Shown one piece after another: positions 1 through 62,293 of a stretch of DNA of 64,000 nucleotides. How positions within the stretch are numbered: the stretch's first letter is position 1; each line of letters starts with the position of its first letter. Under the pieces are notes generated by a model, which was not told the DNA's origin, did not search any database, and was given only the letters and a program-made list of their open reading frames with translations. Origin of the DNA: an uncultured Candidatus Saccharibacteria bacterium (GTDB lineage Bacteria; Patescibacteriota; Minisyncoccia; Phycocordibacterales; DATDWN01); assembly GCA_964596875.1 (NCBI GenBank), contig CAZQVT010000001.1, positions 107,255-171,254 of the forward strand, given 5' to 3'. A program made the translations under genes and the position numbers.

Positions 1-432
<432 letters not shown>

Positions 433-7350: not shown

Positions 7351-7501
7351 AATTTTCGTTTTATATTTTTCATCGCTACCAAAAATCGCCCCAGCGGGCG
7401 ATTTTTGCTGGTCCTCAACCCCTCGTCGTCAAGAACGGGGTGCCTTGACGACACCATGCTCGGGGTCTGCGGAGGCTCTGAAAAAAACAAAACGAAAATT
7501 C
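7350..7501 (+). repeat. TIR element family 2, copy A, carrying an intrinsic terminator hairpin (AAAAATCGCCCCAGCGGGCGATTTTT at 7381-7406)
   Basis: Perfect 12-13 bp TIRs AATTTTCGTTTT (7351-7362) / AAAACGAAAATT (7489-7500). Internal stems CGTCGTCAAG..CTTGACGAC and conserved CCATGCT..CTGCGGAG are shared with copies at 32954-33085, 37024-37131 and 43124-43262. Confidence 0.6.
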
Positions 7502-12678: not shown

Positions 12679-12882
12679 CCCGTTTGAAATAGGAGATCGT
12701 TATGTATTTGCGACTCCTAATGTTGTAGTTAAACTTAACTGAAAATTTATAAATATTGATCTCCGTATATTTCTTACGGGATTCATATGAAGACATTCTA
12801 CTATGTAAGTCCGTGGTGTGCAATTTATAAAAATGGTGCTAAGATTAAATGGGCAGTTCGTTTGCCTCTCCGAGGAGGGTGC

Positions 12883-12975
12883 GTGGACGACGACACGATG
12901 CATCCCGAGCTGTGGGACCCAGTCTTCCGCACCGAGCGGGGGATCATGGACCCCAAGGCTGTGGAGATGACGTAG
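12883..12975 (+). CDS. GC-rich micro-ORF (30 aa, VDDDTMHPELWDPVFRTERGIMDPKAVEMT)
   Basis: GGAGGG RBS 3 nt upstream of GTG 12883. High-GC island. The 38-aa ORF at 13453 also begins M-x-DDD. Confidence 0.25.
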   Translation: MDDDTMHPELWDPVFRTERGIMDPKAVEMT

Positions 12976-13131
12976 GACCCTCTGGCGGGTCTAGTCTCTC
13001 CCTAACACAGAGAGGAGGGTAGACTATCGGAATGAGTCTCTGAGGGGGCAACCAGTACGTGTGTCGGCCAAAACACCTGGGAAGGGGGAGGACAGCAACT
13101 CTCCCGACCTGGGTTAACAAAGGATTCTCAT

Positions 13132-13194
13132 ATGCCTGGCAGTAAAGGAAGAGCGGTCGACATGGCCGCCAAGAAGACCGCCAAGAAGCGGTAG
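13132..13194 (+). CDS. GC-rich micro-ORF (20 aa, MPGSKGRAVDMAAKKTAKKR), Lys-rich
   Basis: AGGA RBS 7 nt upstream. Followed by hairpin GTCGCGttcGTCGCGAC and terminator GGGGGCACTGTGTGCCCCCTTTTTTT (13212-13250). Confidence 0.3.
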   Translation: MPGSKGRAVDMAAKKTAKKR

Positions 13195-13211
13195 TCGCGT
13201 TCGTCGCGACT

Positions 13212-13250
13212 GGAATATCCAGGGGGCACTGTGTGCCCCCTTTTTTTAAT
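13212..13250 (+). terminator. strong intrinsic terminator GGGGGCACTGTGTGCCCCC TTTTTTT
   Basis: 9-bp GC stem plus T7. Confidence 0.7.
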
Positions 13251-13380: not shown

Positions 13381-13452
13381 TTTGGGAAGCCGTAAGCGTT
13401 GCAATTTAGCGCCCAAGGTTTGCACACCACAACTTCATCGAGAGGACACACC

Positions 13453-13569
13453 ATGATCGACGACGACAAGAGTCCGCCGGCCGCCGCCAACCTGATGGGG
13501 CCCTGCCGCCCCGGATATCTCGGCCTCAGCCACCAGATGCGCAACCACGCCGGCCACGTCGCCGCCTGA
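13453..13569 (+). CDS. GC-rich small ORF (38 aa, MIDDDKSPPAAANLMGPCRPGYLGLSHQMRNHAGHVAA)
   Basis: RBS GAGAGGA about 6 nt upstream and the promoter at 13352. Followed by a structured GC-rich tail and terminator-like GAGGGGGCC..GGCCGCCCTCTTTTCTTTT at about 13765-13800. Confidence 0.35.
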   Translation: MIDDDKSPPAAANLMGPCRPGYLGLSHQMRNHAGHVAA

Positions 13570-13825
13570 CACCGGCCGTCGGCGCCCGCGCTAGCGACTA
13601 GGTTCACGCTGTCGTGACCTAGATGTCGCCCAGCCAAGCGCGTCGCCTGCCCGTGTCGTTTCGCCCGCATCCCGCGGGCAACAGGAGTTCGCCGATGAAC
13701 CGTTCACCGCCCTGAAGTTTCGCCCAGCTAGTCTGGGCACCGTGGATACACAAGAGGGGGCCAGCGTCAGATACGCCGGCCGCCCTCTTTTCTTTTATAC
13801 AAAATTTTTTATTACCACGAATTAA

Positions 13826-16616: not shown

Positions 16617-16733
16617 ATGAAATAAATACACAGTTTTGTTTGTAATAACTATTTACACTATGAATCTCTTGTGATTAGATAATAAGTGGGGTGGTTTTCG
16701 TCGTGAAGGCCACAAAGCGCCAGTGGGGTGAGG

Positions 16734-17066
16734 ATGCCACGAGTTTCGCCTGTTGAAAGTATGGATGTTCGTCAGTGTGCCATCCATCTCGGTTCTCTCT
16801 GTCAGTCGTCCCTTCGTGCTTCGGGGGGTGACAAGCACCAGTATGTCCGTAGGCTTCGGCTGAACGGACTCGACGTGGGAACGTTCGACCTCATCAAGGA
16901 CGGCCGTTCTGACGAGGTGGATCGCCGGATTCTCGTCGTACTGTTCGGGTCGATGGACATCAGTCCGAAGGATCGGCCCGCAGTTCGCGAGATGATCAAG
17001 AAGGTGACCCCCGGGGGGTATCAGCGCGTGAAGGGTTCCCTCGCGCAACAGTCGGCTTCGGCCTAG
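16734..17066 (+). CDS. GC-rich hypothetical protein (about 111 aa)
   Basis: About 62% GC. RBS GGTGAGG abuts the ATG. Candidate promoter TTTACA-18-TAGATA at about 16649-16684. Intrinsic terminator downstream. Confidence 0.4.
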   Translation: MPRVSPVESMDVRQCAIHLGSLCQSSLRASGGDKHQYVRRLRLNGLDVGTFDLIKDGRSDEVDRRILVVLFGSMDISPKDRPAVREMIKKVTPGGYQRVKGSLAQQSASA

Positions 17067-32935: not shown

Positions 32936-32953
32936 AAAATTTTCTTTTTCCCC

Positions 32954-33085
32954 ACAATCTTTTCAGAGCGAGCTTTAAAAATTCCAGCGAATTTTTAAAG
33001 CCTGGTCCTCGGCCTCCATCCGTCAAGAAGGGGCGCCTTGACGGAGCCATGCTGGAGGCACTGCGGAGTCTCAGAAAAGATTGTG
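32954..33085 (+). repeat. TIR element family 2, copy B
   Basis: TIRs CACAATCTTTTCAGAG / CTCAGAAAAGATTGTG. Hairpin TTAAAAATTCCAGCGAATTTTTAA. Stems CCGTCAAG..CTTGACGG and GCCTCC..GGAGGC. CCATGCT..CTGCGGAGTC. Confidence 0.6.
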
Positions 33086-34379: not shown

Positions 34380-35474
34380 ATGACTGTAATAATTTTTTTA
34401 ATCATACTGGCGATACTTGTATTTGTTCATGAACTAGGGCATTTTTTGGTGGCAAAAAAGTCAGGTATTCGTGTGGACGAGTTTGCTATTGGTTTTCCTC
34501 CTAAACTTTTTGCAAAAAAGTGGGGGAGCACTTTATATACACTAAACGTTATTCCTTTCGGAGGTTTCGTAAAAATTTTTGGTGAAGATGCTCATAGTGG
34601 GGAAATAAGTGAGGAAAACAAAAGTGTAAGTTTTGTTTACAAACCACGATATATCCAGGCTGCTGTTTTGGTAGCAGGAGTAACTTTCAATATTATTTTT
34701 GCCTGGTTACTTATTGCGGTTACTTTGTTTATGGGGAGCGTGAGTCCTTTGCCACATGACACTATGGGCGAGTTTAATGACGCAAAACTCCTTGTGACAG
34801 AAGTTTTGGTGGACTCTCCTGCAAGTAAAGCGGGTATTTTGCCAGGGGACACTATTGTTTCTATTTCAAACGGAAAACAGACTGCGACAGAAAAGATTTT
34901 TCCAGAAGTTGCCCAAAAAATAATTTCAGAAAGTAAATCGGATATAACAATAAAACTAGAATCAGAGAAAAAAGAGGTTAGGGAACTTAGTGTGACACCT
35001 ACAGAAAACCTTATTGCTGGGAAAAAAGTTGTTGGTGTTTCTATGGAGTGGGTTGGCACAGTAAAATATTCTGCATGGGCATCTCTCACACAAGGAGCAA
35101 AATCTACTTGGTACTTGCTTCGGGAAACTGCAGTGGGACTAGCAAAGTTTTTGTGGCAAACAGTTACATTTCATTCTGACTTTTCACAGGTTACTGGTCC
35201 TGTTGGTATTGCAAAGGTTGTAAAGGAGGCGAACGACCTTGGTTTCAAATACCTACTAACTATTATGGCGATTATTTCTATAAACTTGGCAGTAATAAAC
35301 CTTGTTCCATTTCCCGCTCTTGATGGAGGTAGACTACTTTTTGTTTTTATTGAGGCGGTGATTAGGCGACCACTAAACCCGAGCGTTGTTAAATGGTCAA
35401 ACCTAATCGGTTTTGCACTACTTATGATTTTGATGGTTGCAGTGACTTCGCATGACATCCTGAAACTGTTTTAG
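34380..35474 (+). CDS. rseP: RIP metalloprotease RseP (site-2 protease) with PDZ domain
   Basis: HELGHFLVAKKSG HExxH in TM1. C-terminal LDGG. Confidence 0.85.
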   Translation: MTVIIFLIILAILVFVHELGHFLVAKKSGIRVDEFAIGFPPKLFAKKWGSTLYTLNVIPFGGFVKIFGEDAHSGEISEENKSVSFVYKPRYIQAAVLVAGVTFNIIFAWLLIAVTLFMGSVSPLPHDTMGEFNDAKLLVTEVLVDSPASKAGILPGDTIVSISNGKQTATEKIFPEVAQKIISESKSDITIKLESEKKEVRELSVTPTENLIAGKKVVGVSMEWVGTVKYSAWASLTQGAKSTWYLLRETAVGLAKFLWQTVTFHSDFSQVTGPVGIAKVVKEANDLGFKYLLTIMAIISINLAVINLVPFPALDGGRLLFVFIEAVIRRPLNPSVVKWSNLIGFALLMILMVAVTSHDILKLF

Positions 35475-35505
35475 ACTTTTTTCTTAAACCATGTTATAAA
35501 TACCT

Positions 35506-35721
35506 CTGGACGCGGAAGTGAACCACTCGTTTCAGCCGCACGAGTGTCACGCCCACTTTTGCGGTTAGAAGGGGTTTAGCCGGCCTCTTCGGCCCTCGCG
35601 AGCTGTTCTTTCCGCGTCTACTTGTAATGTTGGACTGCTTTCTGCGCCGCACGCCACCCCACGCAGTCAGATACGACGCCGCCACCTTCGGCCACCCCTC
35701 ACCAGGGTGGCCCTTTTTTTT
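35506..35721 (+). ncRNA. GC-rich structured leader or small RNA between rseP and proS, with its own promoter and intrinsic terminator
   Basis: Promoter TTAGAC-17-TTATAA (35471-35499). Long-range stem GACGCGGAA (35520-35528) / TTCCGCGTC (35607-35615). Internal hairpins. Terminator GGCCACCCctcaccaGGGTGGCC plus T8 (35690-35721), 34 nt before the proS ATG. Confidence 0.45.
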
Positions 35722-35755
35722 GCTCAAAATATTTTTTTGCTGTAGTATTGTCTTT

Positions 35756-37000
35756 ATGAAACAAACACAACTTTTTACAAAAACACGCAAGGAGGCACCA
35801 GCAGATGAGGCTTCAAAAAACGCCCAACTTTTAATACGCGGAGGTTATGTCCACAAAGAACTCGCTGGCGTTTACTCGTATTTACCTTTAGGTCTTAGAA
35901 CACTAAATAAGATTGTTGCAGTAATTCGTGATGAAATGAACAAGATAGGTGGTCAGGAGTTGCTTATGTCTGCACTTCAAGATAAAGAACTTTGGTCACG
36001 AACAGACAGATGGGACGATGCAAAAGTAGACAACTGGTTTAAAACAGAACTTAAAAGTGGTGGAGAAACTGGTCTTGGTATTACACATGAAGAACCACTA
36101 ACTCGTATCATGAGTGAGCATGTTTCGTCTTATAGAGATTTACCGAAACTTGCTTATCAGTTTCAAAACAAGTTTAGAAATGAACTTAGAGCAAAGTCGG
36201 GTATTATGCGAGGAAAGGAGTTTATGATGAAAGACATGTATTCTTTCTCTAGAGATTATGATGCTCACAATATGGATTATGACAAAATACGTGGTGCTTA
36301 TATTAAAATCTTTGAACGCCTAGGTCTTGGTGATAAAACATATGTAACATACGCAGATGGGGGAATCTTTGCAGATTTTTCTGAGGAATTTCAAACTCTA
36401 ACAGAATCAGGTGAAGATATTGTATATGTACACGAGGGTAAAAAAATTGCTGTAAACAAAGAGGTATATACGGACGAAAGTCTTGCAAAACTCGGTGTGT
36501 CAAAGGATGAGTTGGTTGAAAGAAAGGCTGTAGAAGTCGGTAATATTTTTCATCTTGGTACAAGATTTTCTGATGCGATCGGTTTGAAATACAAAGACGA
36601 GGACGGTAGTGAAAAATCTGTTGTGATGGGTAGTTATGGAATCGGTCCAACTAGAGTTATGGGTACAATCGTCGAAGTTTTATCGGATGAAAAAGGAATA
36701 GTTTGGCCAAAAGAAGTCGCACCGTTTGCTATACACCTTGTTCGCCTAGGTGTAAATGATGCAACAGTAAAATATGCTGATGACTTGTATGAAAAACTAA
36801 AACAAAATGGCGTAGAAGTTCTTTACGACGATAGAGACTTGCGACCAGGAGAAAAGTTTGCCGACTCTGACCTTATTGGTATACCTGTTCGTTTTGTTGT
36901 AAGTGACAAAACTGTCGCCGAAGACAAAGTTGAAGTAAAAATGCGAACAGAATCAGATTCAAAACTTGTGAGTGTAGATGAGGCCTTGAAATTAATTTAA
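35756..37000 (+). CDS. proS: prolyl-tRNA synthetase
   Basis: MKQTQLFTKTRKEAPADEASKNAQLLIRGGYVHK start and class II motifs. The track start 35627 is rejected because it reads through the terminator. Confidence 0.85.
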   Translation: MKQTQLFTKTRKEAPADEASKNAQLLIRGGYVHKELAGVYSYLPLGLRTLNKIVAVIRDEMNKIGGQELLMSALQDKELWSRTDRWDDAKVDNWFKTELKSGGETGLGITHEEPLTRIMSEHVSSYRDLPKLAYQFQNKFRNELRAKSGIMRGKEFMMKDMYSFSRDYDAHNMDYDKIRGAYIKIFERLGLGDKTYVTYADGGIFADFSEEFQTLTESGEDIVYVHEGKKIAVNKEVYTDESLAKLGVSKDELVERKAVEVGNIFHLGTRFSDAIGLKYKDEDGSEKSVVMGSYGIGPTRVMGTIVEVLSDEKGIVWPKEVAPFAIHLVRLGVNDATVKYADDLYEKLKQNGVEVLYDDRDLRPGEKFADSDLIGIPVRFVVSDKTVAEDKVEVKMRTESDSKLVSVDEALKLI

Positions 37001-37023
37001 AAAAATTTCTTTCTCCTCATAAT

Positions 37024-37131
37024 TTTTTATCGCAACCTTAAAAACTCCAGCGAGTTTTTAAGGCCAGTCCTCGGCCAAAGTCGTCAAGATGGAGTGCCTT
37101 GACGACACCATGCTTTTGGCCTGCGGGGGCG
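37024..37131 (+). repeat. TIR element family 2, copy C
   Basis: Hairpin TTAAAAACTCCAGCGAGTTTTTAA. Stems GTCGTCAAG..CTTGACGAC and GGCCAAA..TTTGGCC, the latter covarying with GCCTCC/GGAGGC in copy B. CCATGCT..CTGCGGGGGCGCT. Confidence 0.6.
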
Positions 37132-37166
37132 CTAAAAAACCATGAGTCGACGAGATTTTTTTAATT

Positions 37167-43123: not shown

Positions 43124-43262
43124 TATCTTTTCTCCAGACCGCTCGCTTTTCCTGCGAAAAACTCACTTTGTCCTCAGTCGCAATTTGTCAATGAACCGAG
43201 ATTACTCGGACTTTGACAAAACCATGCTTGCTCCCTGCGGAGTCTTGCGAAAAGATCTGTCC
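43124..43262 (+). repeat. TIR element family 2, copy D (divergent)
   Basis: GTCCTCAGTCGCAATTTGTCAATG..CTTTGACAAAACCATGCTTGCTCCCTGCGGAGTC. The inner stem TTTGTCAA/TTGACAAA covaries with GTCGTCAAG/CTTGACGAC in the other copies. Confidence 0.5.
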
Positions 43263-43317
43263 GGCGATATTTATTTATAATATTTACAAAATAATTTTAG
43301 TGTGGTATCGTCAGAGG

Positions 43318-43600
43318 TGGAAAGGGGTGGCCTACGGAAAGCCCAGCCTCGGCTGGGTCTACCGGTGTCCTCCTCCTAAGGGTCATCCCTTTCCGTTTAT
43401 CGGGGTGCAGGGACTGCCTGGTGGGTTCCCAAAGAATGCCTCAGGGATGTTGTGTTCCTAGGGGCTCATTTGGTCCTTGCACCTCGATATCGAGGCACGG
43501 GAGTAGTCGCGTCGGGTTGGTTTCACAAAGTCGCGTATAACTACCAACCCGATTGGCTCCCGTGCCTCGAAAACTCAATGCACCCTCGGTGCATTTTTTC
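43318..43600 (+). ncRNA. GC-rich structured RNA (about 280 nt) of unknown class, with own promoter and terminator
   Basis: Promoter TTTACA-17-TATCGT (43283-43311). Stems GGCACGGGAG/CTCCCGTGCC, GGGTTGGT/ACCAACCC and CCAGCctcgGCTGG, plus alternative GGAAAGGG/CCCTTTCC pairings. Terminator ATGCACCCTCGGTGCAT plus T6 (43578-43599). No credible ORF. Confidence 0.45.
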
Positions 43601-50126: not shown

Positions 50127-50666
50127 ATGCAAGAGGCAACTCCTTTTTCAGACACTATTTCATTATTAGCACTTATTATTTCTTTCGGAGCTTTGGCATG
50201 GAACATAGTTAGAGATTTTGTTTTAGACCGAGTAAAGATAGAGTTTTTCATATCAATGGGGCACATGAGGCAGATTAAAGGTAGTCCCACTGCATTATTT
50301 GCTGAACATGGTGTATTTAGTGATGAAATAGAAAATTCAAAATTGATGTTAACTATGATAAACAATAGTAGAAGGCATTTATATCTTCAAAAAGTTCAGG
50401 GAAAATTCAAGACAGTAATTGAAAATAATAAAGTTTATTTTTCTGTTGCTGTTGCTGGTTTGCCTAAAAAACTCGAATCTTATGAAATGTTTTCTGCAGT
50501 ATCAGATATGGTTCCGAGTGATATTCTATTGGAAAATTTAATTAAAAATAATATTGATTCAATTTGGGTGGAGGACACTTCTAATCACAAATGGTATATA
50601 ACCAAGACCAATCTTGAAAAATTAAGAGAAACGGCTTTTCAGATAAAAAAAGGTGAGCCACAATAA
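50127..50666 (+). CDS. hypothetical protein with N-terminal TM
   Basis: AT-rich. 179 aa. Confidence 0.35.
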   Translation: MQEATPFSDTISLLALIISFGALAWNIVRDFVLDRVKIEFFISMGHMRQIKGSPTALFAEHGVFSDEIENSKLMLTMINNSRRHLYLQKVQGKFKTVIENNKVYFSVAVAGLPKKLESYEMFSAVSDMVPSDILLENLIKNNIDSIWVEDTSNHKWYITKTNLEKLRETAFQIKKGEPQ

Positions 50667-50753
50667 TTTGCTTTTCGTCAAAAGCAAATTTTCCAGCCCC
50701 GGACTCAGCCGTTTTTCTTGCTAGAAAAACATGCTTCCGTCTTCACAAAAGCG

Positions 50754-50784
50754 AAAAAAGACTAGAGCAGTCTAGTCTTTTTTG
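50754..50784. terminator. bidirectional hairpin AAAAAAGACTAGAGCAGTCTAGTCTTTTTT
   Basis: Perfect stem with flanking A and T runs. Confidence 0.65.
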
Positions 50785-51451: not shown

Positions 51452-51559
51452 ATGTTCACACCCTTCGAACTCACGTTGACCCTCACGATCTTCGTCGGTC
51501 TCGGCGTCGTCCAGGCGCTCGCCAGGCGCGACCTCGTTCTGTCCATCCGGAAGCGCTAG
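51452..51559 (+). CDS. 35-aa hydrophobic peptide (MFTPFELTLTLTIFVGLGVVQALARRDLVLSIRKR), type I toxin-like
   Basis: Single TM helix plus basic C-terminus. Structured 5' UTR, RBS GGGAG, and terminator GAGCCTCTACGC..GCGTAGAGGCTC plus T-run at 51580-51620. Confidence 0.4.
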   Translation: MFTPFELTLTLTIFVGLGVVQALARRDLVLSIRKR

Positions 51560-57936: not shown

Positions 57937-57965
57937 AATGACCTCCGAAAGGAGGTTGTTTTTGT
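57937..57965. terminator. bidirectional terminator AAAATGACCTCCGAAAGGAGGTTGTTTTTG
   Basis: Perfect hairpin with A-run 5' and T-run 3'. Confidence 0.75.
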
Positions 57966-58540
57966 ATAAGGAAAAGGGCTAGGATCGAATGGTCACGTGG
58001 GGTGTGCGTAGAGACCAAGGATACCTAGCCCTTCTGCCGACTTGGGTCGGCTTCAGTTGAAACAGTATAAAGAGCGAGACCGGTAAGACCGATCTGGAGG
58101 GAAAACACGTTCCTCCACGTTGATGCGTGTATTTCACGCACCCCCGAAATCGAGCCTCCACATACTGGCCGCCAACCTATCGCCCTCACTAGGGTCGGGT
58201 TGGACATCATCCAGTCTCGCGTATTAACCAACATTTGTAATGCAGGCAAATACTCGAGACCGGCTTCTGTATGGAACTATAGCACAAATAAAAAATATTT
58301 CAACCATTAGAAAACGGTCGCCAGGCGACCGTCGTAGGTGGTTCCGTAGGAGTGTCGCAGTGTACAAACCGAAAGACAGTTCGGTTTGAATCCTTTTCTG
58401 TGCCACCAGAATGGTATATATCCTCGACGCAACATTCAAACCGTTACAGACTGGGTCGGGAGTCCCCAAGTGTGGAATCGGTGAAGGGCATCTAGAGAAT
58501 CTACACACGGCAGACCTAACTGAACCATTTCACATACTAT
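57966..58540. ncRNA. GC-rich structured region without credible ORF, candidate ncRNA(s); class and strand unresolved
   Basis: About 57% GC between rplU and recR. Stems GGGCTAGG..CCTAGCCC, GGAGGgaaaacacgttCCTCC, TGCGTGtatttcaCGCA, GTCGCCagGCGAC and AAACCGAAagacagTTCGGTTT. Internal minus-strand promoter-like TTGAAA-16-TATAGT (about 58270-58305). Confidence 0.35.
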
Positions 58541-58544
58541 ATTA

Positions 58545-59156
58545 TTAGTTTCTGTTTTTCAAGGCGTTTTTTATAGTGTCGCTGTCAGAGTATTCCAGTT
58601 CGGTTCCGGTAGAAAGTCCTCTGCCAAGAGTTGAGATTTTAATATTATTTTTAGTTGTAACATCTTTTAGAAATTCAGTTAGGTAGTTTACAGTGTTTTC
58701 TCCTTCAGGGTTGTAGTTTAATGCTAAAATAATTTCATTTAGTCCTGTTGAGACTTTTGTTTGTATGGTTTGAAGTAAATCTTTTTGTCTTATTCTATTT
58801 TCAGGATTTTTTTCAAGTATTGGGACAGTGCCACCTAGTATAAAATAATAGCCGTTATAAAACTTTGTTTTTTCTATATTTTCATAATCCACATCATGGG
58901 AAACTATCATAAGTTGTTTTGGGTCCCGGTTAGTGTCTCTACAAACTGGACAAAGAGTATTTGTGCTGTTTGGAAAAAACCTAAAACAACTTGTGCACGA
59001 ATGTACTGTGGATCGAACCTCTTTTATTAACCCAGCAAGGTCGGTTGCATACCCCGGGTTTTTGTTCAGTAAAAAGTACACAAAACGTTTTGCTTGTCGT
59101 GGTCCGATTCCAGGAAACTCCTTAAAGAGTTCTATGAGTCGTTCAGTGTTGTTCAT
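58545..59156 (-). CDS. recR: recombination protein RecR
   Basis: Zn finger CTSCFRF..CPVCRD and Toprim domain. 203 aa. Confidence 0.9.
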   Translation of the reverse strand: MNNTERLIELFKEFPGIGPRQAKRFVYFLLNKNPGYATDLAGLIKEVRSTVHSCTSCFRFFPNSTNTLCPVCRDTNRDPKQLMIVSHDVDYENIEKTKFYNGYYFILGGTVPILEKNPENRIRQKDLLQTIQTKVSTGLNEIILALNYNPEGENTVNYLTEFLKDVTTKNNIKISTLGRGLSTGTELEYSDSDTIKNALKNRN

Positions 59157-62104: not shown

Positions 62105-62293
62105 TTACTCGGCCCTGTTTCTGGCCTCGATGAGCGCGCGTCCTCTTTCAGCCCGCGCCTTGTGGCTGGGGTCTGATCTGTTGCACTCGCACACTCCGTC
62201 GGCGCAGTCCATGTCGTGGGCTGCTTCCATGTCTCCAGCGAGTTTACGGACGAGGGTCTTGTCGGTCGACAGTGGTCGCAGCTGCGGGTCCAT
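62105..62293 (-). CDS. GC-rich small protein (62 aa) with DCADGVCEC Cys motif
   Basis: Minus-strand consensus promoter TTGACT-17-TACAAT (62314-62342). RBS GGAGGC 6 nt before the ATG. Downstream hairpin GGCCACACgcatGTGTGGCC. Confidence 0.45.
   Translation of the reverse strand: MDPQLRPLSTDKTLVRKLAGDMEAAHDMDCADGVCECNRSDPSHKARAERGRALIEARNRAE

What the first reader, a model, noticed from the sequence alone, without database searches (positions are those of the whole stretch)
35471..35760. GC-rich promoter-leader-terminator module 34 nt upstream of proS: candidate attenuator or sRNA
Promoter TTAGAC-17-TTATAA. A ~210-nt GC-rich transcript with a 9-bp long-range stem (GACGCGGAA/TTCCGCGTC) and several hairpins. 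Three tandem GCCACC(CC) segments compete for one GGGTGGCC terminator arm, then T8, then the proS ATG. It looks like a transcription-attenuation leader for an aminoacyl-tRNA synthetase. The GGGTGG resembles a T-box core, but the arrangement is not the canonical antiterminator.
Basis: inference. Interest (0 to 1): 0.55.

Follow-up and report, generated by a model that had tools for sequence, protein, structure and literature searches.

The report
Stand-alone structured small RNA gene
The GC-rich stretch in front of the prolyl-tRNA synthetase gene is most likely a separate small-RNA gene of a previously undescribed, lineage-restricted family in an uncultivated "candidate phyla radiation" bacterium, and not a switch that controls the synthetase gene, which has its own promoter right after the RNA's terminator.

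Summary
The sequence features are real. There is an extended -10 promoter, a 214-nt transcript at 60% GC in a 40% GC genome (35508-35721), a long-range 5' stem, a hairpin+T8 terminator, and the proS ATG 34 nt later.

The attenuator/T-box reading fails for six reasons:
1. No T-box or other Rfam match, even at E<=10.
2. A promoter (TTGCTC-17-TAGTAT, 7 nt, ATG) lies between terminator and start codon. The same layout occurs in 76/165 proS loci, so proS is essentially leaderless.
3. rseP-proS spacers under 100 nt occur in 44 relatives, including one at 78% ProRS identity.
4. In several relatives, other promoter-terminator units lie between the element and proS.
5. The GCCACC competition for the terminator arm occurs in the window only.
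6. There is no conserved ORF.

Thirteen syntenic homologues (ProRS identity >=78%) have almost unalignable bodies but share one architecture:
- the transcript starts GGA;
- a covarying 5'-terminal stem closes a three-way junction;
- a U-rich linker (YUUGUAC) follows;
- an exposed CCCCACA motif follows;
- a terminator ends the transcript.

A covariance model built from six members finds seven of the eight other copies then held, and only one copy in the window.

Verdict: a new clade-specific structured sRNA family, function unproven. My inference is that it acts in trans through the exposed C-rich motif.

The parts
34380..35474 (+). Upstream gene: rseP-like site-2 protease (Peptidase_M50), 364 aa. 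Its stop codon overlaps the -35 region of the RNA promoter.
   Evidence: Pfam PF02163 on the orthologues. rseP lies directly upstream of proS in 139/172 loci.
35471..35499 (+). Promoter of the small RNA: weak -35 (TTAGAC/TAGACT, 35471-77) and extended -10 TGT-TATAAA (35491-99). The predicted start is G35507/35508.
   Evidence: Sequence. (T)GTGCTATAAAT followed 6-7 nt later by GGA is conserved in 12 relatives. Not called by the strict consensus scan.
35508..35721 (+). Small RNA transcript, 214 nt, 60% GC.
   Evidence: MFE z = -3.9. CM R1 scores 163 bits, and this is the only hit in the window. No conserved ORF.
35508..35523 (+). P1 5' strand (GGACGCGGAAG.GAAC). Pairs with 35605-35619.
   Evidence: Covariation across 13 members. 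Recovered by RNAalifold on a plain MAFFT alignment.
35524..35604 (+). Interior of the three-way junction. P2 hairpin is 35531-46/35554-70. The junction is GGUUAGAAGG. P3 is 35571-74/35594-97 with a UUCG-type hairpin at 35579-83/35589-93.
   Evidence: MFE. The junction motif GGU(U)AGRGG recurs in most members (sequences).
35605..35619 (+). P1 3' strand (GUUCUUUCCGCGUCU).
35620..35633 (+). Single-stranded U-rich linker with CUUGUAA (35621-27). The family consensus is YUUGUAC directly after P1.
   Evidence: 'After P1' sequences of 13 members.
35657..35663 (+). Conserved C-rich motif CCCCACG (family consensus CCCCACA). It sits in the loop of hairpin 35628-38/35663-73.
   Evidence: In the 11 members with CCCCACA/G that exact motif occurs once; the looser pattern [CU]CCCA[CA][AG] also matches 1-2 further sites in L002 and L161. 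Mean P(unpaired) is 0.53-0.99.
35690..35721 (+). Intrinsic terminator: GGCCACCC-loop-GGGUGGCC (35690-35712), then T8 (35714-21).
   Evidence: The terminator is conserved with compensatory changes.
35720..35748 (+). proS promoter: -35 TTGCTC (35720-25, sharing two T with the terminator T-run), 17-nt spacer, -10 TAGTAT (35743-48), then 7 nt to the ATG.
   Evidence: Conserved by blastn in relatives whose RNA bodies are not alignable. TTGNNN-16..18-TANNNT ending 6-10 nt (rarely up to 13) before the start codon occurs in 76/165 loci, against 3.8 expected.
35756..37000 (+). proS (class II prolyl-tRNA synthetase, 414 aa), predicted leaderless or near-leaderless.

Best explanation
The island is an independent small-RNA gene of a Paceibacteria-type (CPR/Patescibacteria) bacterium, placed between rseP and proS.

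Transcription starts from its own extended -10 promoter at G35507/8 and stops at the hairpin+U8 terminator (35690-35721), giving a 214-nt RNA.

The RNA has two parts:
1. A 5' domain whose very first nucleotides (GGA...) pair about 100 nt downstream (P1) and close a three-way junction.
2. A 3' part consisting of a U-rich single strand (YUUGUAC), an exposed conserved C-rich motif (CCCCACA) and the terminator.

proS is transcribed separately, from a promoter that begins inside the terminator's T-run and ends 7 nt before the ATG. The RNA is therefore not a proS leader. Its terminator also shields the proS promoter from transcription coming from frr-rseP and from the RNA's own promoter.

Shown here: the anatomy, the family, the covariation, the separate proS promoter and the absence of a conserved antiterminator.

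Inferred (about 35% for the specific mechanism): the RNA acts in trans. The closed 5' domain would serve as a stabilising or protein-binding scaffold. The accessible UUGUAC...CCCCACA segment would be the recognition surface, either for base pairing to G-rich (UGUGGGG-like) RNA or for a protein.
For: Family: 13 syntenic homologues share one architecture although their bodies are not alignable by blastn or MAFFT.

Covariation in P1: 82.7% of cells are paired against 64.2% in shuffles. There are 36 double-sided changes against 14. The covariation score is 0.585 against 0.259, with 0/500 shuffles reaching it, and the slid controls are far lower. RNAalifold recovers P1 and the terminator from an unfitted alignment.

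Covariance model: a model built from 6 members detects 7 of the 8 non-training copies then held (L003, L001, L163, L164, L165, L002, L081; E from 1e-6 to 0.02). L161, which I assigned by eye, was not detected. The model finds a single copy in the 64-kb window.

Conserved short motifs sit at fixed relative positions, and the C motif is predicted unpaired.

No conserved ORF. No Rfam family.

Separate proS promoter conserved in 76/165 loci against 3.8 expected.

In L094, L004, L167, L002 and L162, other terminated units lie between the RNA and proS.

No conserved terminator-competing pairing in 12 of 13 members.
Against: There are no expression data, so the promoter, the start site and termination are all predictions.

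The strict promoter scan did not call the RNA promoter.

All members sit in the same syntenic slot in closely related genomes. Adjacency to rseP and proS therefore cannot be separated from shared ancestry, and a cis role cannot be formally excluded.

The P1 3' strands used for one search were taken from each sequence's own MFE fold, which favours pairing.

No convincing UGUGGGG-type target site lies near a start codon in the 64-kb window.

The family is young and narrow, so a weakly selected or neutral transcript is possible.
Confidence: 0.72

Rival explanations
1. Transcription-attenuation leader of proS (T-box-like or another antiterminator). The upstream promoter would drive proS, and the GCCACC segments would compete with the terminator to set read-through.
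For: An aaRS gene follows 34 nt after the terminator. In the window, GCCACCC (35653-59) can pair with the terminator 3' arm about as well as the real 5' arm does (-15.4 against -15.9 kcal/mol). The conserved CCCA contains Pro codons in an exposed loop.
Against: No T-box hit at E<=10 in the window or in 11 relatives. A conserved proS promoter lies downstream of the terminator with 6-10 nt to the ATG. The alternative pairing is absent in the other 12 members. The element is absent from L005 and from 43 further loci with spacers under 100 nt. Other transcription units are intercalated in 5 relatives. No conserved leader peptide.
Confidence: 0.04
2. Ligand- or tRNA-sensing 'riboswitch sRNA'. The P1-closed three-way junction would be an aptamer that decides whether the transcript ends at the terminator or reads on. 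This resembles the EutX/Rli55 or SreA type of riboswitch-containing sRNA.
For: A P1-closed junction with conserved junction nucleotides, followed by a linker and a terminator, is the standard riboswitch layout.
Against: The interior of the junction differs widely in size (about 60-150 nt) and in the number of helices between close relatives, which is unlike an aptamer. There is no conserved P1/terminator alternative pairing. No Rfam riboswitch match.
Confidence: 0.07
3. Structured 3' UTR and terminator of the frr-rseP operon, with no function of its own. The promoter-like sequence would be incidental, and the GC-rich structure would only stabilise the upstream mRNA and stop read-through into proS.
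For: There is no other terminator between rseP and the element. The element always directly follows the rseP stop. Relatives without it have no terminator between rseP and proS.
Against: The extended -10 box and its fixed 6-7 nt distance to the first paired G of P1 are conserved while the body diverges. The conserved single-stranded motifs are not needed for termination or stability.
Confidence: 0.12
4. A known housekeeping RNA (6S, SRP, RNase P fragment, Y RNA) too divergent for Rfam models.
For: Single copy, strong promoter, conserved synteny, and a structure conserved more than the sequence, as is typical of 6S RNA.
Against: The 5' end pairs with the middle of the RNA, not with the 3' end, so there is no rod with a central bubble. 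No SRP domain-IV or RNase P conserved motifs, and no sub-threshold Rfam hits shared by members. The family is missing in relatives below about 78% ProRS identity.
Confidence: 0.04
5. A small protein gene or a decayed GC-rich foreign gene fragment.
For: Other GC-rich islands in the window do carry plausible small ORFs, for example 51452-51559 and 62105-62293(-).
Against: No ORF is shared in position, frame or sequence among 8 members. The substitutions preserve base pairs, not codons.
Confidence: 0.01

Closest known systems
T-box riboswitch (Rfam RF00230), the tRNA-sensing leader of aminoacyl-tRNA synthetase genes
   Same: It lies in front of an aaRS gene and ends in an intrinsic terminator. 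The window copy has GGGUGG next to the terminator and an exposed CCC/CCA (Pro codon)+A.
   Different: No model match. No Stem I features. GGGUGG is in the terminator 3' arm and is not conserved. There is no antiterminator. A promoter separates it from proS, and other genes can be intercalated. It is not a member and does not appear to work like one.
Gram-positive trans-acting sRNAs with exposed C-rich seeds (RsaE/RoxS; the UCCC-motif sRNAs of Staphylococcus). Comparison from my own knowledge of that literature.
   Same: A stand-alone gene with its own promoter and an intrinsic terminator. An unpaired C-rich motif sits just upstream of the terminator, and no Hfq-type module is obvious.
   Different: No sequence or model similarity (Rfam negative). 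It has a much larger P1-closed 5' domain and one C motif rather than two or three. No targets have been identified. This is a resemblance in design only.
sRNA genes that sit at the 3' end of an mRNA and share its terminator (type I 3'-UTR sRNAs such as DapZ or MicL). Comparison from my own knowledge.
   Same: The promoter overlaps the end of the upstream ORF, and the terminator serves both the upstream operon and the sRNA.
   Different: The RNA lies wholly downstream of the stop codon. No regulator or target is known.
Riboswitch-containing sRNAs (EutX/Rli55, SreA/SreB). Comparison from my own knowledge.
   Same: A P1-closed junction domain followed by a terminator, in a transcript that encodes nothing.
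   Different: No known aptamer class. The junction interior is not conserved, and there is no alternative pairing with the terminator.

Membership tests
T-box riboswitch | Match to the family covariance model (RF00230) | tested here: not met
   No T-box hit at E<=10 in window 35350-35850. None in 11 relatives' loci at E<=10.
T-box riboswitch | Conserved 14-nt T-box sequence forming an antiterminator bulge (UGGN) that overlaps the terminator 5' arm | tested here: not met
   Only GGGUGG is present, in the terminator 3' arm of the window copy. Other members have GAGCGGCC, GAGACGGCC, GGCGGCCC and so on.
T-box riboswitch | Mutually exclusive antiterminator/terminator pairing conserved across homologues | tested here: not met
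   The alternative duplex is comparable to the terminator only in the window (-15.4 against -15.9). In the other 12 members it is no better than shuffled sequence.
T-box riboswitch | Lies in the 5' leader of the regulated gene, with no promoter in between | tested here: not met
   TTGCTC-17-TAGTAT lies between terminator and ATG. This layout occurs in 76/165 loci against 3.8 in shuffles. Other units are intercalated in L094, L004, L167, L002 and L162.
T-box riboswitch | Specifier loop presenting the cognate codon followed by a purine, within Stem I (K-turn, S-turn, distal platform) | tested here: inconclusive
   A conserved, exposed CCCA (Pro codon + A) exists. It lies 3' of the junction domain in a simple loop or single strand, and no Stem I motifs were recognised.
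Leader-peptide attenuator | Conserved short ORF enriched in the regulatory codon, overlapping alternative hairpins | tested here: not met
   No ORF conserved in frame, position or sequence among 8 members.
Intrinsic (rho-independent) terminator | GC-rich hairpin immediately followed by a U tract | tested here: met
   8-bp stem (7 GC) plus T8. The stem is conserved with compensatory changes in 6 members.
Independent structured sRNA family (new) | Homologues share a secondary structure supported by compensatory changes | tested here: met
   P1: 9 of 12 pairs have double-sided changes, 0/500 shuffles reach the score, and slid controls are lower. RNAalifold recovers P1. A CM built from 6 members finds 7 of the 8 other copies then held; L161 is missed.
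Independent structured sRNA family (new) | Own promoter and terminator; non-coding | tested here: met
   Conserved extended -10 at a fixed distance from the first P1 nucleotide. Terminator. No conserved ORF.
Independent structured sRNA family (new) | The RNA is expressed as a discrete species | not testable with these tools
   No transcriptome data are available for this uncultivated lineage.
C-rich-seed trans-acting sRNAs (RsaE/RoxS type) | Unpaired C-rich motif complementary to G-rich sites at target ribosome-binding sites | tested here: inconclusive
   The motif is exposed. No UGUGGG(G) site at a convincing start codon was found in the 64-kb window. The rest of the genome was not available. 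No Rfam RsaE match.
6S RNA | 5' and 3' ends pair into a long rod with a central bubble | tested here: not met
   In all 13 members the 5' end pairs with the middle of the RNA, and the 3' third lies outside the stem. No Rfam 6S hit.

The most novel reading that the evidence does not exclude
The rseP-proS spacer of this Paceibacteria clade may be a nest in which highly structured, GC-rich, fast-evolving RNA genes are kept and exchanged. At least three unrelated families occur there, up to four units in tandem, and each starts with a 5'-terminal closing stem. The window carries about ten such islands in 64 kb. A minimal CPR genome might therefore invest an unusual share of its DNA in unknown structured RNAs.

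Within that picture, the exposed and invariant CCCA(C)A of this RNA is complementary to U33-G36/37 of a tRNAPro anticodon loop. The RNA could then be a trans-acting tRNAPro-binding or sensing RNA kept next to proS.
Probability: 0.1. Interest if true: 0.65.

Novelty: new member of a known kind. Interest (0 to 1): 0.36.

Why it matters
Four full-text searches of the held paper library turned up nothing on regulatory RNAs in Patescibacteria/CPR. This would be a concrete, comparatively supported sRNA family in that group. It has a clear architecture and conserved exposed motifs that can be tested in metatranscriptomes or in the few cultivable co-cultures.

It also corrects an annotation trap. GC-rich islands in front of leaderless genes get read as leaders or as N-terminal extensions: here the ORF is called at 457 aa against a real length of 414 aa.

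The wider observation, that many highly structured GC-rich islands sit in one 64-kb window, may matter more than this single locus.

Tried and rejected
- Rfam at gathering and at permissive E-values, on the window and on 11 relatives: only two tRNAs and chance hits.
- blastn of the island against 80 loci found only the terminator/proS-promoter part.
- Plain MAFFT of 8 members misaligned the bodies. I therefore used a 6-member subset (A2) and a P1 mini-construct (A4).
- The CM-fitted alignment A3 contained partial and minus-strand hits and was not used for pair counts.
- A home-made descriptor search (terminator + C motif + long-range stem) gave one extra window candidate on the minus strand (57941-58147). 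It has the C motif, but the CM does not recognise it.
- Target search for UGUGGG(G)/GUACAA near start codons found nothing convincing. A crude duplexfold screen was uninformative and was discarded.
- Viral-contig scan with a P1+C-motif pattern: 19 matches. The best-scoring one (L174), when read, was AT-rich inside and clearly unrelated. The other CM hits were weak (<=22 bits), often on both strands, and I take them as chance.
- Families 2 and 3, which share the spacer in relatives, have no blastn homologue in the window.
- Pfam on seven ORFs in other GC-rich islands: no hits.
- Literature searches on Patescibacteria sRNAs and leaderless mRNAs: nothing relevant.
- A tRNAPro gene was looked for in the window. 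The only tRNAs are tRNA-Asn and tRNA-Glu.
Full report
OBSERVATION

The region reads as described. The rseP-like ORF ends at 35474. An extended -10 box, TGT-TATAAA (35491-99), follows a weak -35 (TTAGAC, 35471-76). Downstream is a 60%-GC segment in a 39.6%-GC window.

The exact 9-bp repeat GACGCGGAA/TTCCGCGTC is found at 35509-17/35610-18. The hairpin GGCCACCC/GGGTGGCC (35690-35712) with T8 is the only terminator-like site in 35200-36000. GCCACC(CC) occurs at 35653, 35681 and 35691.

The proS ATG is at 35756, 34 nt after the T-run. The ORF tool's earlier start (35627, 457 aa) is an in-frame extension through the terminator. Homologues are 414-415 aa and align from residue 1.

The plus strand folds to -86.3 kcal/mol with z = -3.9 and 0/200 shuffles as stable. 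The minus strand gives z = -2.2.

WHAT IT IS NOT

- Rfam finds only two tRNAs in the whole window. In a dedicated 500-nt search at E<=10 there is no T-box, riboswitch, 6S, SRP or other plausible family. The same holds for 11 related loci.
- The ProRS relatives place the window in CPR/Patescibacteria (Paceibacteria/Kaiserbacteria-like MAGs).
- rseP lies directly upstream of proS in 139 of 172 loci. In 44 of these the spacer is under 100 nt, with no room for a 200-nt leader. One such locus is L005, at 78% ProRS identity, with a 77-nt spacer.
- The 34 nt between terminator and ATG are not inert. TTGCTC (35720-25), 17 nt, TAGTAT (35743-48), 7 nt, ATG. This block is what blastn conserves in relatives, while the RNA body is not conserved.
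- Across all loci, TTGNNN-16..18-TANNNT ending 6-10 nt (three cases at 11-13) before the proS start codon occurs in 76 of 165 cases. Shuffles give a mean of 3.8 and a maximum of 10. The 76 include high-GC relatives without any island (L009, L011, L013).
- proS is therefore transcribed from its own promoter as a leaderless or nearly leaderless mRNA. A 5'-leader attenuator cannot act on that transcript.

WHAT IT IS

All relatives with ProRS identity of about 80% or more, and L004 at 78%, carry a GC-rich promoter-to-terminator unit right after the rseP stop. The bodies are not alignable by blastn or plain MAFFT.

The 13 non-redundant members are: window, L082, L162, L094, L004, L167, L001, L163, L164, L003, L081, L002 and L161. 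They share the following architecture.

1. A conserved (T)GTGCTATAAAT box. The transcript starts 6-7 nt later with GGA.
2. Those first nucleotides form a 10-16 bp long-range stem, P1, whose sequence differs between members: GGACGCGGAAG, GGAACACAUAAG, GGAGGCGAGAGG, GAAACGGUAG, GGAAACAGGGGG. Each has a matching 3' strand.
3. P1 closes a junction with two or more hairpins and a recurring GGU(U)AGRGG junction.
4. Directly after P1 comes a U-rich single strand with YUUGUAC.
5. Next is a CCCCACA motif (variants CCCCACG, CUCCCACA, CCCCCAAA). In the 11 members that carry CCCCACA/G it is the only copy. The looser search pattern also matches one or two further sites in L002 and L161.
6. A terminator ends the unit.

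Evidence for the shared structure:
- P1 covariation is strong. 82.7% of cells are paired against 64.2% in shuffles. There are 36 double-sided changes against 14. The score is 0.585 against 0.259, with 0/500 shuffles reaching it, and all slid registers are far lower.
- Caveat: the 3' strands for that count were taken from each sequence's own MFE fold.
- Independently, RNAalifold recovers P1 and the terminator on an unfitted MAFFT alignment of six members.
- A covariance model built from those six detects seven of the eight non-training copies then held, at E from 1e-6 to 0.02. L161, a close relative of L002, falls below threshold. The model finds exactly one copy in the window and none elsewhere in about 1 Mb of loci.
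- No ORF is conserved.
- The C motif is predicted mostly unpaired, with mean P(unpaired) of 0.53-0.99.

At 76-79% ProRS identity the slot holds other P1-closed elements or nothing, and the model does not match them.

WHY IT IS NOT A CIS-REGULATOR OF proS

Besides the separate promoter, five relatives have further promoter-terminator units between this RNA and proS. L094 has three more, L004 and L167 have a roughly 250-nt 'family 3' element, and L002 and L162 have a 'family 2' element.

The terminator 3' arm can pair with 35653-59 at -15.4 kcal/mol, against -15.9 for the terminator itself. In the 12 other members the best alternative pairing is no better than shuffled sequence.

MECHANISM

Shown: the anatomy, the family, the covariation, the independent transcription signals, and the insulation of the proS promoter by the terminator (their sequences share two T residues).

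Inferred: the RNA works in trans. Sequestering the 5' end in P1 and ending in a terminator hairpin are the usual features of a stable sRNA. The only strongly conserved, accessible sequence is UUGUAC...CCCCACA, so that is the likely recognition surface for a G-rich RNA or a protein. I put about 35% on seed-type base pairing. No target site was evident in the 64 kb available.

A speculative alternative is that CCCA(C)A pairs with the anticodon loop of tRNAPro. There is no other T-box-like feature, and m1G37 would limit such pairing (the latter point is from my own knowledge).

COMPARISON AND NOVELTY

In design it resembles stand-alone Gram-positive sRNAs with exposed C-rich seeds. In genomic placement it resembles sRNAs that share the terminator of the upstream operon. 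It is not a member of any Rfam 15 family.

It is a new member (a new family) of a known kind. It is narrow in distribution and its function is unproven. Interest is moderate to low for the locus itself.

The more notable point is the context. The window holds many GC-rich islands with promoters and terminators. Some are extremely structured: 43312-43600 has z = -9.3 and 57941-58275(-) has z = -6.2. Four full-text searches of the held library found nothing on Patescibacteria sRNAs.

Noticed in passing
window 7360-7500, 32950-33085, 37020-37150, 43125-43265 (weaker: 50665-50765), all + strand: A roughly 115-nt intergenic repeat family. Each copy lies just after a gene's stop codon, and one lies directly after proS. 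Anatomy: an A/T-rich hairpin with a CCAGCG loop, then GGTCCTCRGCC, a variable arm, the GTCAAGA...CCTTGAC hairpin, conserved CCATGCT, the complementary variable arm, and CTGCGGRG. The variable arms covary (CCCCTCG/CTCGGGG, GCCTCCA/TGGAGGC, GGCCAAAG/TTTTGGCC). No Rfam match.
   Followed up: partly
window 43312-43600 (+): A 289-nt GC-rich intergenic unit with a promoter-like box and a terminator. It folds into a 5' P1-closed domain plus two long near-perfect hairpins. MFE is -153 kcal/mol and z = -9.3. No Rfam match. It is a much stronger structured-RNA candidate than the finding itself.
   Followed up: partly
window 57941-58275 (-) and 58310-58545 (-): Two tandem GC-rich promoter-to-terminator units on the minus strand. 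The first (about 335 nt) has z = -6.2 and a CACCCCACG motif before its terminator. The family model R1 does not recognise it. No Rfam match.
   Followed up: partly
window 12850-13247 (+) and 13390-13797 (+): Two adjacent GC-rich units of about 400 nt each (up to 78% GC), both behind a TGCTAAGAT-type extended -10 box and ending in terminators. Their z-scores are -3.2 and -2.0. Each also contains a short ORF with an SD-like sequence, for example MPGSKGRAVDMAAKKTAKKR. Whether they are coding or non-coding is undecided.
   Followed up: partly
window 51452-51559 (+); 62105-62293 (-); 16728-17066 (+): GC-rich small ORFs in an AT-rich genome. One is a 35-aa hydrophobic peptide (MFTPFELTLTLTIFVGLGVVQALARRDLVLSIRKR) behind a hairpin and GGGAGAA, which looks like a type I toxin. 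One is a 62-aa ORF with a GGAGG SD and a terminator. One is a 112-aa ORF with no Pfam hit. The composition suggests foreign or mobile origin.
   Followed up: partly
window 35720-35758; upstream of proS in L001-L168: proS appears to be leaderless or nearly so. A sigma-70-type promoter ends 6-10 nt before the start codon in 76/165 loci across low- and high-GC relatives. No SD is visible before the window ATG.
   Followed up: yes
window 35627-37000; database proteins P0013 (479 aa), P0033 (456 aa), P0044 (457 aa): The longest-ORF rule extends proS by 43 codons through the RNA's 3' half and its terminator. Several public ProRS entries of this clade are 40-65 aa longer than the 414-415 aa norm. They may carry the same kind of N-terminal over-extension, but I did not inspect them.
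   Followed up: partly
L094 979-2001; L004 2436-3001; L167 2162-2693; L002 2455-3001; L162 2065-2501; L076 2577-3001; L168 2056-2501: In relatives, the rseP-proS spacer holds tandem arrays of up to four promoter-terminator ncRNA-like units from at least three unrelated families. 'Family 2' starts GGYRGGYGRG..GCUGACUU. 'Family 3' is about 250 nt and 77-86% identical between L094, L167 and L004. No Rfam match.
   Followed up: partly
L006 2784-3001 and L190 1803-2001: At 76-78% ProRS identity the same slot holds a shorter element. It has a P1-closed domain of about 75 nt with GGWCCUAGA and GUCGAAMAA, then a hairpin and a terminator. The architecture is similar but it lacks the CCCCACA motif and is not detected by model R1. 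It is either a divergent relative or a replacement.
   Followed up: partly
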